A stretch of 64,000 bases of DNA from a virus. The translations under genes and the position numbers were made by a program. The stretch lies in IMG/VR virus record IMGVR_UViG_3300045199_000074. One strand, written 5' to 3'. Below are positions 7,068 to 60,635 of the stretch, piece after piece (position 1 is the first letter of the stretch; the number at the start of each line of letters is the position of its first letter). A model generated the notes under the pieces. That model was not told where the DNA came from and made no database searches. It worked only from the letters and a program-made list of their open reading frames with translations.

Positions 7068-7142
7068 TGGTACCGCTGAGGAGAATCGAACTCCCATTTT
7101 CTGATTGAAAATCAGACGTCCTAACCATTAGACGACAGCGAC
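7068..7142 (-). tRNA. tRNA-Glu(TTC)
   Basis: Cloverleaf; anticodon arm TCTGA-TTTTCAA-TCAGA; T-loop TTCGATT; encoded CCA. Confidence 0.9.
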
Positions 7143-7144
7143 AC

Positions 7145-7221
7145 TGGCGGCGATGACGGGAATCGAACCCGTAACCTTCTGATCGACAGTCAGATGCTCT
7201 AACCAATTGAGCTACACCACC
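7145..7221 (-). tRNA. tRNA-Asp(GTC)
   Basis: Cloverleaf; TCTGA-CTGTCGA-TCAGA; G73; encoded CCA. Confidence 0.93.
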
Positions 7222-7222
7222 G

Positions 7223-7294
7223 TACCGCCAACGGGGTTCGAACCCGTGTCACCGCCTTGAGAGGGCAGCATCCTAACCACTAGAAGATGGCGGC
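7223..7294 (-). tRNA. tRNA-Glu(CTC), no encoded CCA
   Basis: Cloverleaf; CTGCC-CTCTCAA-GGCGG; a single C separates the discriminator from tRNA-Asp. Confidence 0.9.
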
Positions 7295-7338
7295 TTATCA
7301 AGACAACTCGCCGAACCTTTCAGTCAGTTTGTTTGTTC

Positions 7339-7417
7339 TTGATGATCTATTTATTGCATATTAAAAAACTGTCGTCAATATATAAAATTCATTTTCTTTA
7401 ATATTTTCAATAACTTA
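7339..7417 (-). promoter_or_regulatory. Sigma70-type promoter of tRNA cluster 1 with an upstream IHF-like site
   Basis: TTGACG at 7378-7373; same layout as 24197-24275; TTTCAATAACTTA resembles WATCAANNNNTTR. Confidence 0.6.
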
Positions 7418-7470
7418 GGTTGATTTCAATAGAAATCCGCTCGCTGCCTTTGGCCTCGTTAAAACTGCTA

Positions 7471-7524
7471 TCATTTGGTTTTGTCACGTTCTCGTTCGTC
7501 GCTATCGTCGTCGCCTTCTGGCAT
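7471..7524 (-). CDS. Putative 17-aa Asp/Glu-rich peptide MPEGDDDSDERERDKTK
   Basis: Strong AAGGAG RBS 6 nt before ATG; below the ORF-track cutoff. Confidence 0.35.
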   Translation of the reverse strand: MPEGDDDSDERERDKTK

Positions 7525-7572
7525 TGACTTCTCCTTTCTTTCTCAATCATTTCGGGTTGTAACTTGGAAAAT

Positions 7573-7596
7573 AAAAAAGGGCCGCAATTGCGACCC
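7573..7596 (-). terminator. Intrinsic terminator GGGTCGC-AATT-GCGGCCC-T6
   Basis: GC hairpin followed by T-run on the minus strand. Confidence 0.7.
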
Positions 7597-7653
7597 AAAA
7601 AAGAAATTACCTATCTTTTTAACGGCCGCGTGCTTGACGGCCGCCGATAACGG

Positions 7654-7719
7654 CTACCGCCGGGTGATATCTTCTTCCCGACGTTCTTCAGTACGAATGA
7701 TTAGTGATATGCCGTTCAT
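7654..7719 (-). CDS. Putative 21-aa leader peptide MNGISLIIRTEERREEDITRR
   Basis: TTGACT-17nt-TAAAAC promoter (7770-7742), GGAG RBS, TAG stop embedded in a hairpin. Confidence 0.5.
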   Translation of the reverse strand: MNGISLIIRTEERREEDITRR

Positions 7720-7840
7720 TTTTAACTCCAATGTTATGTATGTTTTAAATGACCCTTTAGAAACAGTCAAGTTTTTCCATTTTTCTATATGTTATTTCAT
7801 AGTTTTCTATTACATTCGCCTTGAAAGATTTGAGGTGATC

Positions 7841-9007
7841 ATGAAAATCGACATTGCAGACCCTGGCATTCATGTAATTGGTGAACTTTTATCTAGCGGC
7901 GGGTATCAATCTCGTCTCGTTGGAGGTGCTGTTCGCGATATGCTAATGGGTATGAAACCTAAAGATATGGATTTAGCGACCGATGCATTGCCAGAAATCG
8001 TAATGGAATTAGCATCTAGACAGGGTTATCGGGTGATACCAACAGGTCTTCAGCACGGCACTGTGACAATCGTTTATGATGACATCGGTTATGAAGTGAC
8101 CACTCTTCGAAAAGATGTCGACACAGACGGCCGTCATGCAACTGTGGAGTATGTCACCGATTTTGCCGAAGATGCTGCGCGTAGAGACTTCACCATTAAC
8201 GCTATGTCAGCCTCTGTTGATGGCGAAGTTTATGATTATTTTGGTGGTTTGAAGGACCTTGAGGAAGGTCGTGTCCGATTTGTAGGTGATGCACACCAGC
8301 GTATTGAAGAGGATTATCTGCGTATCCTGCGCTTCTTTCGTTTTCGAGCTCGGTTTGGAGGCGAAGAGACCGAACTCGATCTGAAGGCGATCAAAGATAA
8401 TTCCCACGGCCTTTCCGGCATCTCAGTTGAGCGTGTCTGGAGTGAAATTGATAAAATATTACAATATTCAAATGGTACAGACCAGTTGGCGTTAATGGCC
8501 GATTTGGGTGTTGCCCAGGTTGTCGGCCTCCCGATTGACGAAGACAACATCACAATTGCGCGTGATGCAAGGGAGTTTGGCGCTCGTTCATCTGTGATGT
8601 TGGGCATTCTGGCAGGAAATGAAGATTATGCTGGAAGTCTTGCAACGCGCTGGAAGTTGTCCAATTCCGAGATGAAAGATGCAGTCTTGGCGTCTCAAAT
8701 CATTGCTATTTCCGAATACGAACCCCATTACTGGATGACTCAGGCAGTAAACGGTCTTGATCCCACTGTTGCATGTCCTATTCTGTCTGCAATTGGTGCT
8801 CATGAAGCTGCAAAGGCTTTGTCTGGAGATATTCCCGTTTTCCCTCTTAAGGGGCGTGATCTCATTGGTTTAGTCGATAAAGGACCGACGATGGGAGCTG
8901 TTTTACGTGATGCCAACTCAAAGTGGATTGACTCCGGATTTAAGCTTACAAAAGAAGAGCTCATTGCCGATATTGTTAATGTTGGCCCAACTGTTGGTAG
9001 GCTGTAA
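7841..9007 (+). CDS. cca: Class II CCA-adding tRNA nucleotidyltransferase
   Basis: VGGAVRD, DMDLAT, EVTTLR, DGRH loop, RRDFTINAM and EDYLRILRFFRF motifs; start after GAGG. Confidence 0.92.
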   Translation: MKIDIADPGIHVIGELLSSGGYQSRLVGGAVRDMLMGMKPKDMDLATDALPEIVMELASRQGYRVIPTGLQHGTVTIVYDDIGYEVTTLRKDVDTDGRHATVEYVTDFAEDAARRDFTINAMSASVDGEVYDYFGGLKDLEEGRVRFVGDAHQRIEEDYLRILRFFRFRARFGGEETELDLKAIKDNSHGLSGISVERVWSEIDKILQYSNGTDQLALMADLGVAQVVGLPIDEDNITIARDAREFGARSSVMLGILAGNEDYAGSLATRWKLSNSEMKDAVLASQIIAISEYEPHYWMTQAVNGLDPTVACPILSAIGAHEAAKALSGDIPVFPLKGRDLIGLVDKGPTMGAVLRDANSKWIDSGFKLTKEELIADIVNVGPTVGRL

Positions 9008-9291
9008 TGGCGCTTAAACTTAAAAAGCCCAGTTCTAAGCCGAAAGACCAGGATGATGAGCCTTCATTTAATCCACCGAATAATTCATGTGGTATAACTC
9101 CAGCAGTTAAATTGGGGGGTCGTAGGTTCCCGCCACCACCTCTAGGAAGTGGATTCTCTGAATTTTTAGACTGGTCTTCAGATGAGAGCCTTTGTCCAAC
9201 TCCTGAACAGGAGATTTTAGCATTTAATTTATGGATCGGAATTGATATCGAAGATGTTAATCCTGATCCGACATCATCAATAAAAATGTAG
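9007..9291 (+). CDS. Hypothetical protein (Pro-rich, acidic tail ending SSIKM)
   Basis: TAATG overlap with cca. Confidence 0.65.
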   Translation: MALKLKKPSSKPKDQDDEPSFNPPNNSCGITPAVKLGGRRFPPPPLGSGFSEFLDWSSDESLCPTPEQEILAFNLWIGIDIEDVNPDPTSSIKM

Positions 9292-9402
9292 ACGAGAGTG
9301 CGTTTTAAGCAGTTTTTATTTGCGATTTAAAATCTCATTATCTATTGTTGTTTTATAATTAATAATTGCCCCTTTAATTTGGCTTGGGAGATAAAGCCTG
9401 GT

Positions 9403-59456: not shown

Positions 59457-59531
59457 TGGCGTCTCCGGCAGGATTCGAACCTGCGGCCTATTTCTTAGGA
59501 GGAAATTGCTCTTCCACTGAGCTACGGAGAC
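59457..59531 (-). tRNA. tRNA-Arg(CCT)
   Basis: ATTTC-CTCCTAA-GAAAT; encoded CCA. Confidence 0.92.
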
Positions 59532-59539
59532 TAATGTTA

Positions 59540-59616
59540 TGGCGATCCCGGTAGGATTCGAACCTACGACCTTGAGCTTAGAAGGCTCCTGCTCTCGTCC
59601 ACTGAGCTACGGGACC
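59540..59616 (-). tRNA. tRNA-Arg(TCT)
   Basis: GAGC-CTTCTAA-GCTC; encoded CCA. Confidence 0.92.
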
Positions 59617-59644
59617 AAAGTGTAGTAAATACACTTCTTATATG

Positions 59645-59718
59645 TGGAGGCCTGACCGAGAATTGAACTCGGGTAAACGGTTTTGCAGACCGTCGCGTAA
59701 CCACTCCGCCATCAGGCC
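59645..59718 (-). tRNA. tRNA-Cys(GCA)
   Basis: ACGGT-CTGCAAA-ACCGT; U73; encoded CCA. Confidence 0.93.
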
Positions 59719-59793
59719 ATACTGACATTGCTGCCAGTTTATTCTTACTGGCGGGGAAAGGTTCTAATCCTTTAACAACCGCACGCCAGATTT

Positions 59794-59869
59794 TGGTGGG
59801 CTGAAGGAGAATTGAACTCCTGCCAGACAGGATCTCTGTCCCTGTTATCCTTTACAACAGTCTCAGCCC
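59794..59869 (-). ncRNA. Non-canonical tRNA-like RNA (6-bp D stem, 5-nt anticodon loop)
   Basis: GGGCTGA/TCAGCCC-A-CCA acceptor; AGGAG-TTCAATT-CTCCT T arm; GACAG-AGATC-CTGTC. Confidence 0.75.
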
Positions 59870-59876
59870 AAAAATG

Positions 59877-59952
59877 TGGTGCCCGCAGAGAGACTCGAAC
59901 TCCCGACCTGATGATTACAAATCAACTGCTCTACCAACTGAGCTATGGGGGC
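59877..59952 (-). tRNA. tRNA-Thr(TGT)
   Basis: Loop TTTGTAA; encoded CCA; C5:C68 and U28:U42 mismatches. Confidence 0.88.
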
Positions 59953-60065
59953 ACATGACGTCTCACGACGTTATTCGCGGGATGATTGATTGTCGGGCTC
60001 AACCATCCAAAAGCCATGACGCAACGAATTAGGCTGCGTGGAATCCGCATTTTATAGCGGACCTT

Positions 60066-60141
60066 TGGTGCCAAATAAGAGACTTGAACTCCCGACCTTC
60101 GCTTTACGAAAGCGCTGCTCTACCAACTGAGCTAATTTGGC
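60066..60141 (-). tRNA. tRNA-Thr(CGT)
   Basis: CGCT-TTCGTAA-AGCG; encoded CCA. Confidence 0.9.
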
Positions 60142-60148
60142 AATTACA

Positions 60149-60325
60149 TTAATCCAGATCAAAATCGACATCATCGGATTCACCGATTAGCAATCTCTTT
60201 CCAATGTCTTCTAATGCAAGTTTTTTAAGTTCTTGCATTTTATTCCATGCTTCCTGGAGAACTTTTTCATAAGTTTCTCCTTCTAGCATTAAATCGATAA
60301 GCCTGTTTACCATCGACTTTTCCAT
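60149..60325 (-). CDS. Putative 58-aa helical acidic protein inside the tRNA cluster
   Basis: MEKSMVNRLIDLMLEGETYEKVLQEAWNKMQELKKLALEDIGKRLLIGESDDVDFDLD fills the Trp-Thr spacer. Confidence 0.55.
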   Translation of the reverse strand: MEKSMVNRLIDLMLEGETYEKVLQEAWNKMQELKKLALEDIGKRLLIGESDDVDFDLD

Positions 60326-60330
60326 TTATT

Positions 60331-60406
60331 TGGCAAGGGCAACAGGATTCGAACCCGCGACCTACGGTTTTGGAGACCGTCGCTCTACCAACTGAGCTAT
60401 ACCCCT
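60331..60406 (-). tRNA. tRNA-Trp(CCA)
   Basis: ACGGT-CTCCAAA-ACCGT; G73; encoded CCA. Confidence 0.93.
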
Positions 60407-60421
60407 ATATAATTTTAGACA

Positions 60422-60635
60422 AAATAAAAGCCCCGAACTTATATTCGAGGCTTCATCGGATGCGGCACTGTACTCATCGAGTCAACAGATGTTTCCGCCT
60501 CCAGGGAAGCCCCTGTAGGTTCTCCAACATGTCCATGTTGTTCTCGTGTTGCGCATCTTTCAGTCTTTCTTTTTGGATAAGGACCCATGTCCATCTCGTT
60601 ACATCCTTTATGAATTGTTGGCTGCAAATTGTCAA
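60422..60635 (-). promoter_or_regulatory. Promoter plus structured leader/ncRNA ending in a terminator just before tRNA cluster 3
   Basis: TTGACA at 60635-60630; terminator AAGCCTCGAA/TTCGGGGCTT plus T-run at 60453-60422. Confidence 0.5.

What the first reader, a model, noticed from the sequence alone, without database searches (positions are those of the whole stretch)
7068..60635. All three tRNA clusters sit behind a short ORF plus terminator containing cognate codons
Seen: cluster 1 (Glu/Asp) follows the EERREED peptide. Cluster 2 (Lys/Lys) follows MSTFMTALKRKPQHCAS (24465-24412; AAGGA RBS; AAA CGA AAA; TAG in a hairpin; then a terminator). Cluster 3 (Trp, Thr, Cys, Arg) follows a possible 51-codon ORF (60594-60439) with AGA, AGA, TGC and ACA clustered in KRKTERCATR and its stop in the terminator loop. 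Inference: a demand-sensing tRNA supplementation system in which translation of sensor peptides gates expression of backup tRNAs. The codon matches for clusters 2 and 3 could be chance in AT-rich DNA.
Basis: inference. Interest (0 to 1): 0.72.

Follow-up and report, generated by a model that had tools for sequence, protein, structure and literature searches.

The report
Leader-peptide attenuators head megaplasmid tRNA clusters
Each of the three spare-tRNA clusters on this megaplasmid-like DNA sits behind a conserved mini reading frame containing codons that its tRNAs read, followed by a predicted transcription terminator, which likely lets the element make more of a given tRNA when ribosomes stall on those codons: the logic of amino-acid-operon attenuators, turned onto the tRNA genes themselves.

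Summary
Real, with one correction. All three tRNA clusters follow a short ORF and a terminator hairpin. The cluster-3 leader is not the 51-codon ORF (not conserved) but 60556-60482, MRNTRTTWTCWRTYRGFPGGGNIC: 11 of 23 codons are read by the cluster's tRNAs, all six anticodons are represented, and it is kept in 7 relatives together with its promoter, a predicted antiterminator and the terminator. The window belongs to a family of alphaproteobacterial megaplasmids. In Rhizobium pRlX5, 7 of 8 multi-tRNA clusters have such a leader; together these clusters serve all 20 amino acids, and the true leader-cluster pairing ranks first of 5040 permutations. A chromosomal control gave 5 of 42. Best reading: ribosome-mediated transcription attenuation that raises a tRNA when its codons are read slowly (0.72; no expression data). 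Caveats: the Glu/Asp and Lys leaders are not significant alone, their modelled switches are weak, and both clusters have a conserved second promoter after the terminator, so only cluster 3 looks fully gated. Ten paper searches found no attenuator on tRNA genes. This scan noted the same kind before, on two other clusters of this replicon and in phages; five of those notes were later marked in doubt.

The parts
7754..7770 (-). Cluster 1: start of the predicted leader promoter P1 (-35 TTGACT; 17 nt; -10 TAAAAC), back to back with the CCA-adding-enzyme-like gene
   Evidence: pattern match; the pRlX5 orthologue has TTGCAA-17-TATCTA
7654..7719 (-). Cluster 1 leader ORF MNGISLIIRTEERREEDITRR; control block GAA GAA CGT CGG GAA GAA GAT
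   Evidence: orthologue VRHIAFHIVAAAEREEDISTR in pRlX5; no differences over 7471-7770 in a ~95% identical variant
7579..7660 (-). Cluster 1 predicted three-helix switch and terminator hairpin (7596-7579 plus U tract)
   Evidence: same predicted cascade in pRlX5; outcome at the stop codon depends on the assumed footprint
7471..7524 (-). Second, post-terminator ORF MPEGDDDSDERERDKTK with a strong AAGGAG site; role unexplained
   Evidence: 8 of 16 residues D/E, P 3e-4; orthologue MPDDDTDDSDERDDEERL in pRlX5
7350..7417 (-). Cluster 1 proximal promoter-like site P2 (TAAGTTATTGAAA, resembling the recalled IHF consensus, at 7417-7405; TTGACG at 7378)
   Evidence: arrangement shared by 8 plasmid leader regions and 0 of 43 chromosomal tRNA units
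7068..7294 (-). tRNA cluster 1: Glu-CTC, Asp-GTC, Glu-TTC
24412..24465 (-). Cluster 2 leader ORF MSTFMTALKRKPQHCAS (AAA CGA AAA)
   Evidence: orthologue MIERTLNRLKRKTVHRGCCG in pRlX5; not significant alone
24360..24407 (-). Cluster 2 candidate antiterminator segment AGGATAT (24407-24401) and terminator hairpin (24385-24367 plus U tract)
   Evidence: the switch is not resolved by the ensemble model
24208..24275 (-). Cluster 2 proximal promoter-like site P2 (IHF-like site 24275-24263; TTGACG-17-CATATT 24236-24208)
24026..24194 (-). tRNA cluster 2: Lys-TTT, Lys-CTT
60607..60635 (-). Cluster 3 predicted promoter TTGACA-17-CATAAA
   Evidence: TTGACA invariant in 8 of 8 aligned orthologues; 17-nt spacing matched in 7 of 8
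60482..60556 (-). Cluster 3 leader ORF MRNTRTTWTCWRTYRGFPGGGNIC; control block ACG AGA ACA ACA TGG ACA TGT TGG AGA; weak Shine-Dalgarno match in the window
60505..60513 (-). Cluster 3 antiterminator segment GGGGCTTC, predicted to pair with GAAGCCTC of the terminator 5' arm
   Evidence: 1 of 300 shuffles as strong; pair identities change across orthologues
60421..60454 (-). Cluster 3 intrinsic terminator hairpin and U tract; the hairpin ends 23 nt before tRNA-Trp
59457..60406 (-). tRNA cluster 3: Trp-CCA, Thr-CGT, Thr-TGT, Cys-GCA, Arg-TCT, Arg-CCT, with a 54-aa ORF (60313-60149) and a tRNA-like element (59869-59794) inside

Best explanation
Each tRNA cluster is headed by a conserved short reading frame with a block of codons read by that cluster's tRNAs and by a terminator hairpin, and this unit likely works as a ribosome-mediated transcription attenuator that raises those tRNAs when their codons are read slowly. 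Shown: the ORFs, codon blocks, hairpins, spacing and conservation. Predicted: a promoter ahead of each leader, and a helix between the leader just past the control block and the terminator's 5' arm. Inferred: with enough charged tRNA the ribosome runs past the block, covers that segment, and the terminator forms; when a cognate charged tRNA is short it stalls in the block, the antiterminator forms, and polymerase reads into the tRNA genes, whose products relieve the stall (negative feedback). In cluster 3 this would be the only gate. In clusters 1 and 2 it would add to output from a proximal promoter. The most likely trigger is loss or overload of a specific tRNA (cleavage, or demand from the plasmid's own codons), not amino-acid starvation, which extra tRNA would not cure; this step is inference.
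For: (1) Cluster-3 leader: 11 of 23 codons are read by the cluster's tRNAs against a background of 0.063 (P 4e-8), and all 6 anticodons are represented. (2) It is kept in pRlX5 and in 6 of 8 metagenome hits. The pattern fixed W-T-C-W; the start codon, Thr run, AGA, AGG GG, promoter and terminator were not fixed. (3) A rule blind to codons finds ORF plus terminator at 15 of 19 multi-tRNA clusters in five replicons (window 3 of 3, pRlX5 7 of 8, pBSY19_1 3 of 4, pANAM02 2 of 3, AM1 0 of 1) and at 5 of 42 chromosomal tRNA units. (4) The true pairing of the 7 pRlX5 leaders and clusters is best of 5040 permutations (score 21.0, mean 4.9); those clusters serve all 20 amino acids. (5) Isoacceptor match: the Ser/Gln block uses codons for 6 of 6 anticodons and the His/Leu/Pro/Tyr block 9 of 10. 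The Thr-GGT cluster's leader uses ACC at 2 of 2 Thr codons, the Thr-CGT/TGT cluster's leader ACG/ACA at 5 of 6. (6) The predicted cluster-3 antiterminator holds with the ribosome at or before W11 and is lost after it (-30.9 kcal/mol, then -14.0 at R15 and -1.7 at the stop). Its pairs change across relatives: C-G, T-A, T-G and G-C at one position. (7) A ~95% identical variant has 0 differences in 300 nt spanning the cluster-1 leader to ORF2, and 18 in the flanking 406 nt. (8) The window encodes CCA-adding-like, Pnkp/Rnl1-like, Thg1 and RtcB-like proteins, consistent with a tRNA-repair role. (9) The same switch is described in a rhizobium for trpE(G) (PMC6614838, passages).
Against: No RNA or ribosome evidence: the RNA-labelled runs are assembled contigs, which cannot show ends or levels. 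The Glu/Asp and Lys leaders are not enriched alone (P 0.10, 0.23). The window's Glu/Asp leader lacks GAG and its Lys leader lacks AAG. In the window the codon-blind rule picks a different frame for cluster 3 (MDMLENLQGLPWRRKHLLTR) because the conserved leader has a weak Shine-Dalgarno match; with that frame the true pairing ranks 2nd of 6. The antiterminator duplex beats dinucleotide shuffles at p<0.05 in only 4 of 22 leaders; window cluster 1 gave 59 of 300 and cluster 2 gave 83 of 300. An ensemble measure (pairing in the block minus pairing at the stop, >0.2) passes in 10 of 17 leaders at a 12-nt footprint and 9 of 17 at 15 nt. Window cluster 3 misses it (0.48 vs 0.38), cluster 2 shows no switch (0.70 vs 0.69), and cluster 1 switches only at 12 nt. 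Clusters 1 and 2 have a conserved proximal promoter-like site. The AGG codon lies inside the antiterminator segment and is kept in relatives whose cluster lacks Arg-CCT. The leader rule was written after I had seen the leaders, and orthologues are not independent. Five similar phage notes of this scan were later marked in doubt, with no reason shown.
Confidence: 0.72

Rival explanations
1. For clusters 1 and 2 the tRNAs are made mainly from the proximal promoter. The leader and terminator control something else: the post-terminator peptide, the released leader RNA or peptide acting in trans, or only a minor top-up.
For: An IHF-like site followed by TTGAC occurs after the terminator in 8 plasmid leader regions and in 0 of 43 chromosomal units. 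Second ORFs rich in cognate residues (MPEGDDDSDE/MPDDDTDDSDE, MRRRRR, MDDDGNG/MGDDGIAGNG) are conserved. A released attenuator RNA acts in trans in S. meliloti (PMC6614838, title and passages).
Against: It cannot apply to cluster 3 or the pRlX5 Ser/Gln cluster, where the terminator ends 10-27 nt before the first tRNA. It does not explain why leader codons match the downstream anticodons.
Confidence: 0.12
2. The leaders sense ribosome stalling but act through transcript stability or Rho-dependent termination, with the post-terminator ORF as the real sensor. The predicted antiterminators are incidental.
For: The duplexes are mostly no stronger than shuffles (4 of 22). Modelled switches are weak for window clusters 1 and 2. 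The cluster-1 second ORF is more enriched than its leader (P 3e-4 vs 0.10).
Against: Intrinsic terminators sit at a near-constant 21-34 nt after the stop in most leaders (48-57 nt for Glu/Asp). Predicted pairing drops a few codons after the control block in most leaders. Cluster-3 pairs covary.
Confidence: 0.1
3. The attenuators are real but are general stress sensors (amino-acid starvation, ribosome-targeting antibiotics), not tRNA-specific feedback.
For: The Anabaena plasmid tRNA array is induced by antibiotics that target the ribosome (PMC8421152, passages). Any attenuator responds to uncharged tRNA, whatever the cause (established knowledge).
Against: Seven separately coded leaders, matched down to isoacceptors, are more than a general sensor needs. 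This rival shares the switch with the best explanation and differs only in the physiological trigger.
Confidence: 0.05
4. Chance small ORFs lie in front of ordinary terminators that insulate constitutive tRNA genes.
For: Clusters 1 and 2 are not significant alone. 17 of 42 chromosomal tRNA units have an upstream terminator, 5 an ORF in front of it, and one of these has a Thr run.
Against: The frames are conserved between the 43% GC window and relatives of 51-62% GC, the permutation rank is 1 of 5040, and the block is invariant in a close variant.
Confidence: 0.01

Closest known systems
Leader-peptide transcription attenuators of amino-acid operons: E. coli trpL and S. meliloti trpL/rnTrpL before trpE(G) (PMC6614838, passages read); multivalent thrL, ilvL and pheM-pheST (recalled)
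   Same: A short ORF with control codons, mutually exclusive antiterminator and terminator, and charged-tRNA shortage read by ribosome pausing; several amino acids sensed by one leader.
   Different: The regulated genes are the tRNAs that read the control codons, not biosynthetic enzymes or a synthetase. Blocks sample isoacceptors. Seven such units on one plasmid cover all 20 amino acids. Several have a second cognate ORF and a second promoter after the terminator.
Anabaena 7120 plasmid trn operon (L-array), PMC8421152, passages read
   Same: A redundant plasmid-borne tRNA array induced under translational stress.
   Different: It is one 26-gene operon thought to be controlled by a DNA-binding repressor (later named TrcR; recalled). 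The words 'leader' and 'attenuat' do not occur in its main text. Here the control is predicted to be cis-acting, per cluster and codon-specific.
Salmonella mgtCBR tandem attenuators mgtM/mgtP (PMC3641672, abstract read)
   Same: Two short ORFs in one leader; one responds to low charged tRNA-Pro and controls genes outside amino-acid synthesis.
   Different: There both ORFs precede the switch and sense different signals. Here the second ORF follows the terminator and carries the same amino acids as the tRNAs.
T-box riboswitches (recalled)
   Same: Read-through of a terminator depends on the charging state of a specific tRNA.
   Different: A T-box binds tRNA directly and needs no translation. Rfam found no T-box or other riboswitch in the window.

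Membership tests
Ribosome-mediated transcription attenuator | Short leader ORF with start site and control codons | tested here: met
   Cluster 3: (weak Shine-Dalgarno match in the window, 3-4 nt match in the 7 relatives). Clusters 1 and 2 are met by conservation only.
Ribosome-mediated transcription attenuator | Intrinsic terminator between the leader and the regulated genes | tested here: met
   (predicted hairpin plus U tract, 3 of 3 clusters)
Ribosome-mediated transcription attenuator | Antiterminator exclusive with the terminator, freed by a stall at the control codons and blocked by a ribosome past them | tested here: inconclusive
   Supported for cluster 3, footprint-dependent for cluster 1, not resolved for cluster 2; folding models only.
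Ribosome-mediated transcription attenuator | Control codons match the function of the regulated genes | tested here: met
   1 of 5040 permutations in pRlX5; best of 6 in the window with the conserved frame
Ribosome-mediated transcription attenuator | The leader is translated and read-through rises on shortage of the cognate charged tRNA | not testable with these tools
   Only contigs of RNA-labelled runs were offered.
Ribosome-mediated transcription attenuator | No independent promoter between the terminator and the regulated genes (sole gate) | tested here: inconclusive
   Met for cluster 3 (23 nt gap). Clusters 1 and 2 have a conserved promoter-like site whose activity is untested.
T-box riboswitch | Specifier stem and T-box antiterminator bulge matching the Rfam model | tested here: not met
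   Rfam at gathering threshold finds only tRNAs.
Repressor-controlled tRNA L-array (Anabaena trn type) | Single long array (26 genes in Anabaena) under one promoter with repressor direct repeats | tested here: not met
   The window has three clusters of 2-6 tRNAs; pRlX5 has 55 Rfam tRNA matches split over several clusters. Operator repeats were not searched.

The most novel reading that the evidence does not exclude
These megaplasmids carry a complete, modular, self-regulating backup tRNA set. Seven ribosome test tracks sample nearly every isoacceptor of all 20 amino acids and switch on only the cluster whose tRNA is under attack or overdrawn, with a second post-terminator ORF as a further checkpoint, alongside a tRNA-repair kit. 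This would be a plasmid-borne homeostat against tRNA-cleaving defences and toxins.
Probability: 0.35. Interest if true: 0.9.

Novelty: new variant of a known kind. Interest (0 to 1): 0.76.

Why it matters
If it works as predicted, tRNA genes here regulate themselves by direct negative feedback on decoding speed, a use of attenuation that ten full-text searches did not find (open-licence papers and bioRxiv only). It bears on the open question of why mobile elements carry redundant tRNAs: each leader states which shortage its cluster answers, so the codon-demand, starvation and tRNA-cleavage hypotheses make different predictions cluster by cluster. pRlX5 is in a cultured Rhizobium strain, so this can be tested directly. 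The leaders would also be a ready set of in vivo reporters for individual charged tRNAs.

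Tried and rejected
The frame MDMLENLQGLPWRRKHLLTR was rejected as the sensor: it is less enriched (5 of 19, P 0.09) and cut short by early stops in pRlX5, L257 and L264. Equilibrium folding with the whole terminator present was uninformative, since the terminator nearly always wins; I switched to transcripts ending in the terminator loop. A gyrB search of genome contigs returned only distant relatives, 46-56% identical. A leader pattern in viral contigs gave 0 of 120 loci with a tRNA. 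The leader-plus-tRNA-Trp pattern gave 1 viral hit without tRNAs, and 2 of 8 metagenome hits without tRNAs. The family marker protein found no relative in viral contigs, nor in 401 and 400 sampled genomes of the order and family (1 genome not scored). Three other alphaproteobacterial plasmids had only 2-4 scattered tRNAs; the Paracoccus and Enterobacter hits looked like chromosome-type regions. A VirB4-type family was found in 0 of 4 related plasmids. The AM1 megaplasmid's Ala/Val/Ala cluster, the pRlX5 Gln/Gln pair, the pBSY19_1 Trp/Cys pair and the downstream part of the pANAM02 Ser/Leu array had no leader by the rule. 19 RNA-labelled runs hold half or more of the words of window 54000-63900, but only as contigs, and they may be one campaign; they are no evidence of transcription. 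No variant data were obtained for cluster 2. No whole genome of the window is held, so its other clusters could not be examined here. Supplementary files of the papers were not opened.

Full report
What the DNA is. The window (about 43% GC) encodes RecA, MutL, GyrB, class Ib ribonucleotide reductase, ThyA, a sigma factor and a tRNA-repair set: a CCA-adding-like protein at 7841-9007, a Pnkp/Rnl1-like protein, Thg1 and an RtcB-like protein. It also encodes a DotA/TraY family protein, which points to a conjugative element. Its GyrB is closest (61%) to Rhizobium leguminosarum plasmid pRlX5 (1.32 Mb), which has the same tRNA cluster next to gyrB. A hypothetical protein (40694-41755) matches only 4 of 72,556 plasmids: pRlX5, two Bosea plasmids and the Methylorubrum AM1 megaplasmid. 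Members of its nearest protein cluster lie on contigs of up to 1.0 Mb. I read the window as part of an alphaproteobacterial megaplasmid. Ten of its 11 anticodons were also found among 39 fetched tRNA regions of one alphaproteobacterial chromosome (Arg-CCT was not), so the tRNAs are likely redundant with the host's.

The observation. All three clusters follow a short ORF and a terminator-like hairpin. For cluster 3 the proposed 51-codon ORF is neither enriched (P 0.10) nor conserved. The overlapping ORF 60556-60482, MRNTRTTWTCWRTYRGFPGGGNIC, is both: 13 of 23 residues are Trp, Thr, Cys or Arg (P 8e-7; 1 of 477 small ORFs, itself), 11 of 23 codons are read by the cluster's tRNAs (background 0.063), and ACG, ACA, TGG, TGT, AGA and AGG cover its six anticodons. 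pRlX5 has MSRTTTTTWTCWRHPRGPEGGGVCLS at the same place. A pattern scan gave 8 metagenome hits, 6 of them with the same cluster and leader. The pattern fixed W-T-C-W and the distance to tRNA-Trp. It did not fix the start codon, the Thr run, the AGA codon (8 of 8, although 28 of 1340 Arg codons in the pRlX5 sample), TTGACA or the terminator.

The test across replicons. I fetched the tRNA clusters of pRlX5, pBSY19_1, pANAM02 and the AM1 megaplasmid. I then applied one rule that ignores codon content: the strongest terminator within 520 nt of the first tRNA, and the best Shine-Dalgarno ORF ending within 60 nt of it. It finds a leader at 15 of 19 multi-tRNA clusters and at 5 of 42 chromosomal tRNA units, one further unit being dropped for a short upstream region. 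In pRlX5 the seven leaders carry QQQQSSQSSSSSS (Ser/Gln cluster), HLPLPLHLLPLPY (His/Leu/Pro/Tyr), VTNAGNNATAAIMAGGV (Ala/Asn/Val/Gly/Met/Ile/Thr), RRFR (Phe/Arg), RLKRK (Lys/Lys/Arg-CCT), EREED (Glu/Asp) and TTTTTWTCWR. The true assignment ranks first of 5040, and the seven clusters serve all 20 amino acids. The match reaches isoacceptors: 6 of 6 anticodons in the Ser/Gln block, 9 of 10 in the His/Leu/Pro/Tyr block, and Thr codons split as the Thr tRNAs are split between clusters. The pRlX5 Lys cluster holds Arg-CCT and its leader has AGG; the window's Lys cluster and leader have neither (two cases only). Limits: I wrote the rule after seeing the leaders. Three of the seven pRlX5 leaders are weak alone (Glu/Asp P 0.3, His/Leu/Pro/Tyr P 0.11 over the whole peptide, Lys P 0.04). 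In the window the rule picks another frame for cluster 3.

The switch. With transcripts cut at the terminator loop and the ribosome modelled as an unpaired footprint, GGGGCTTC (codons 15-17) pairs with the terminator's 5' arm and closes a -30.9 kcal/mol structure while the A site is at or before W11; it is -14.0 at R15 and -1.7 at the stop. This segment repeats the terminator's own 3' arm. Its pairs change across relatives, with C-G in the window, T-A in pRlX5, T-G in L261 and G-C in L264 at one position; these are few, related sequences, so each change may be one event. Cluster 1 has a three-helix cascade that is the same in pRlX5 and flips at T19/S19, just after the EED block, but its state at the stop codon depends on the footprint. 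Cluster 2 is not resolved in the window (0.70 vs 0.69), whereas its pRlX5 orthologue switches (0.86 vs 0.40). Duplex strength alone beats shuffles in 4 of 22 leaders, and the block-minus-stop measure passes in 10 or 9 of 17, without window cluster 3. The structural case therefore rests on position and covariation, not on energy.

Complications. After the terminator, clusters 1 and 2 have TAAnnnnTTGAAA (like the IHF consensus; recalled) followed by TTGAC and a -10-like hexamer. This arrangement occurs in 8 plasmid leader regions and 0 of 43 chromosomal units. These clusters probably have a second promoter, so the attenuator would add to expression and not gate it alone. In cluster 3 and the Ser/Gln cluster the terminator ends 10-27 nt before the tRNA. 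Several clusters also have a conserved second ORF just after the terminator that opens with cognate residues. A stall there might shield the read-through RNA from decay or from Rho; this is a guess. In a ~95% identical variant, 7471-7770 (promoter, leader, switch, second ORF) has no differences, against 18 in the flanking 406 nt (P 5e-5); selection or recent exchange could both give this.

Mechanism. I commit to ribosome-mediated transcription attenuation with negative feedback on tRNA supply (0.72). The anatomy and the matching are shown. Promoters, terminators and helices are predicted. Translation, stalling and induction are inferred. The trigger is the least certain step. Extra tRNA does not cure amino-acid starvation, whereas isoacceptor-level sampling and the tRNA-repair genes fit loss or overload of single tRNA species.

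Comparison and novelty. It works like trpL-type attenuators (PMC6614838, passages) and meets the sequence-testable features, fully for cluster 3 and partly for clusters 1 and 2. It is not a T-box, nor a repressor-controlled array of the Anabaena type (PMC8421152, passages). Tandem leader ORFs are known from mgtCBR (PMC3641672, abstract). Ten searches (other papers seen as listings only, 20 of 105) showed no attenuator on tRNA genes; subscription journals are mostly missing from the library. After forming my reading I looked up this scan's notes. The Ser/Gln and Phe/Arg leaders of this same replicon, and similar leaders in phages and an archaeon, were noted before. One was later checked and stands; five phage notes are marked in doubt. 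They are leads, not support. Verdict: new variant of a known kind, interest 0.76.

Noticed in passing
window 59869-59794 (-): tRNA-like cloverleaf ending in ACCA inside cluster 3, with an 8-pair acceptor-like stem and a 5-nt anticodon-like loop by folding; missed by Rfam and default ARAGORN, called Ile-GAT only at a relaxed threshold.
   Followed up: partly
window 60313-60149 (-): 54-aa ORF between tRNA-Trp and tRNA-Thr (MVNRLIDLML...DVDFDLD); pRlX5 has a 52-aa acidic-tailed ORF at the same place. It would be expressed under the attenuator.
   Followed up: partly
window 60062-59960 and 59790-59720 (-): Runs of small hairpins in the spacers between cluster-3 tRNAs; possibly processing signals or decayed tRNAs.
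   Followed up: no
window 7524-7471 (-); L115, L118, L114, L125, L253: Conserved second ORFs just after the terminators, opening with cognate runs (Asp/Glu, poly-Arg, Asp/Gly/Asn); function unexplained.
   Followed up: partly
window 7841-9007, 13053-15419, 15569-16396, 54863-56308: tRNA-repair set: CCA-adding-like enzyme divergent from the cluster-1 leader, Pnkp/Rnl1-like fusion, Thg1, RtcB-like ligase.
   Followed up: partly
window 4799-6943 (+): DotA/TraY family protein (type IVB secretion or conjugation).
   Followed up: no
L117, L114, L125, L252 (pRlX5, Bosea plasmids): GCT(C/G)TTTGACA, like the rRNA boxA antitermination site (recalled), follows the terminator in the four longest tRNA operons.
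   Followed up: no
L001 6898-7399: pRlX5 carries a tmRNA gene (ARAGORN label tmRNA*, tag ANDNNAMEMRLAA).
   Followed up: no
L119 (pRlX5 Gln/Gln pair): Short ORF MATTFYQRQQIAAD ends 27 nt before tRNA-Gln with no terminator between.
   Followed up: no
L117 (pRlX5 His/Leu/Pro/Tyr leader): The first half of this 55-codon leader is rich in Ala, Gly, Asn, Val, Met and Ile, the residues served by a different cluster; possibly a fused ancestral leader.
   Followed up: no
window 56438-57604 and 57588-58235 (+): ADP-ribosylglycohydrolase and an sce7726-family gene next to cluster 3.
   Followed up: no
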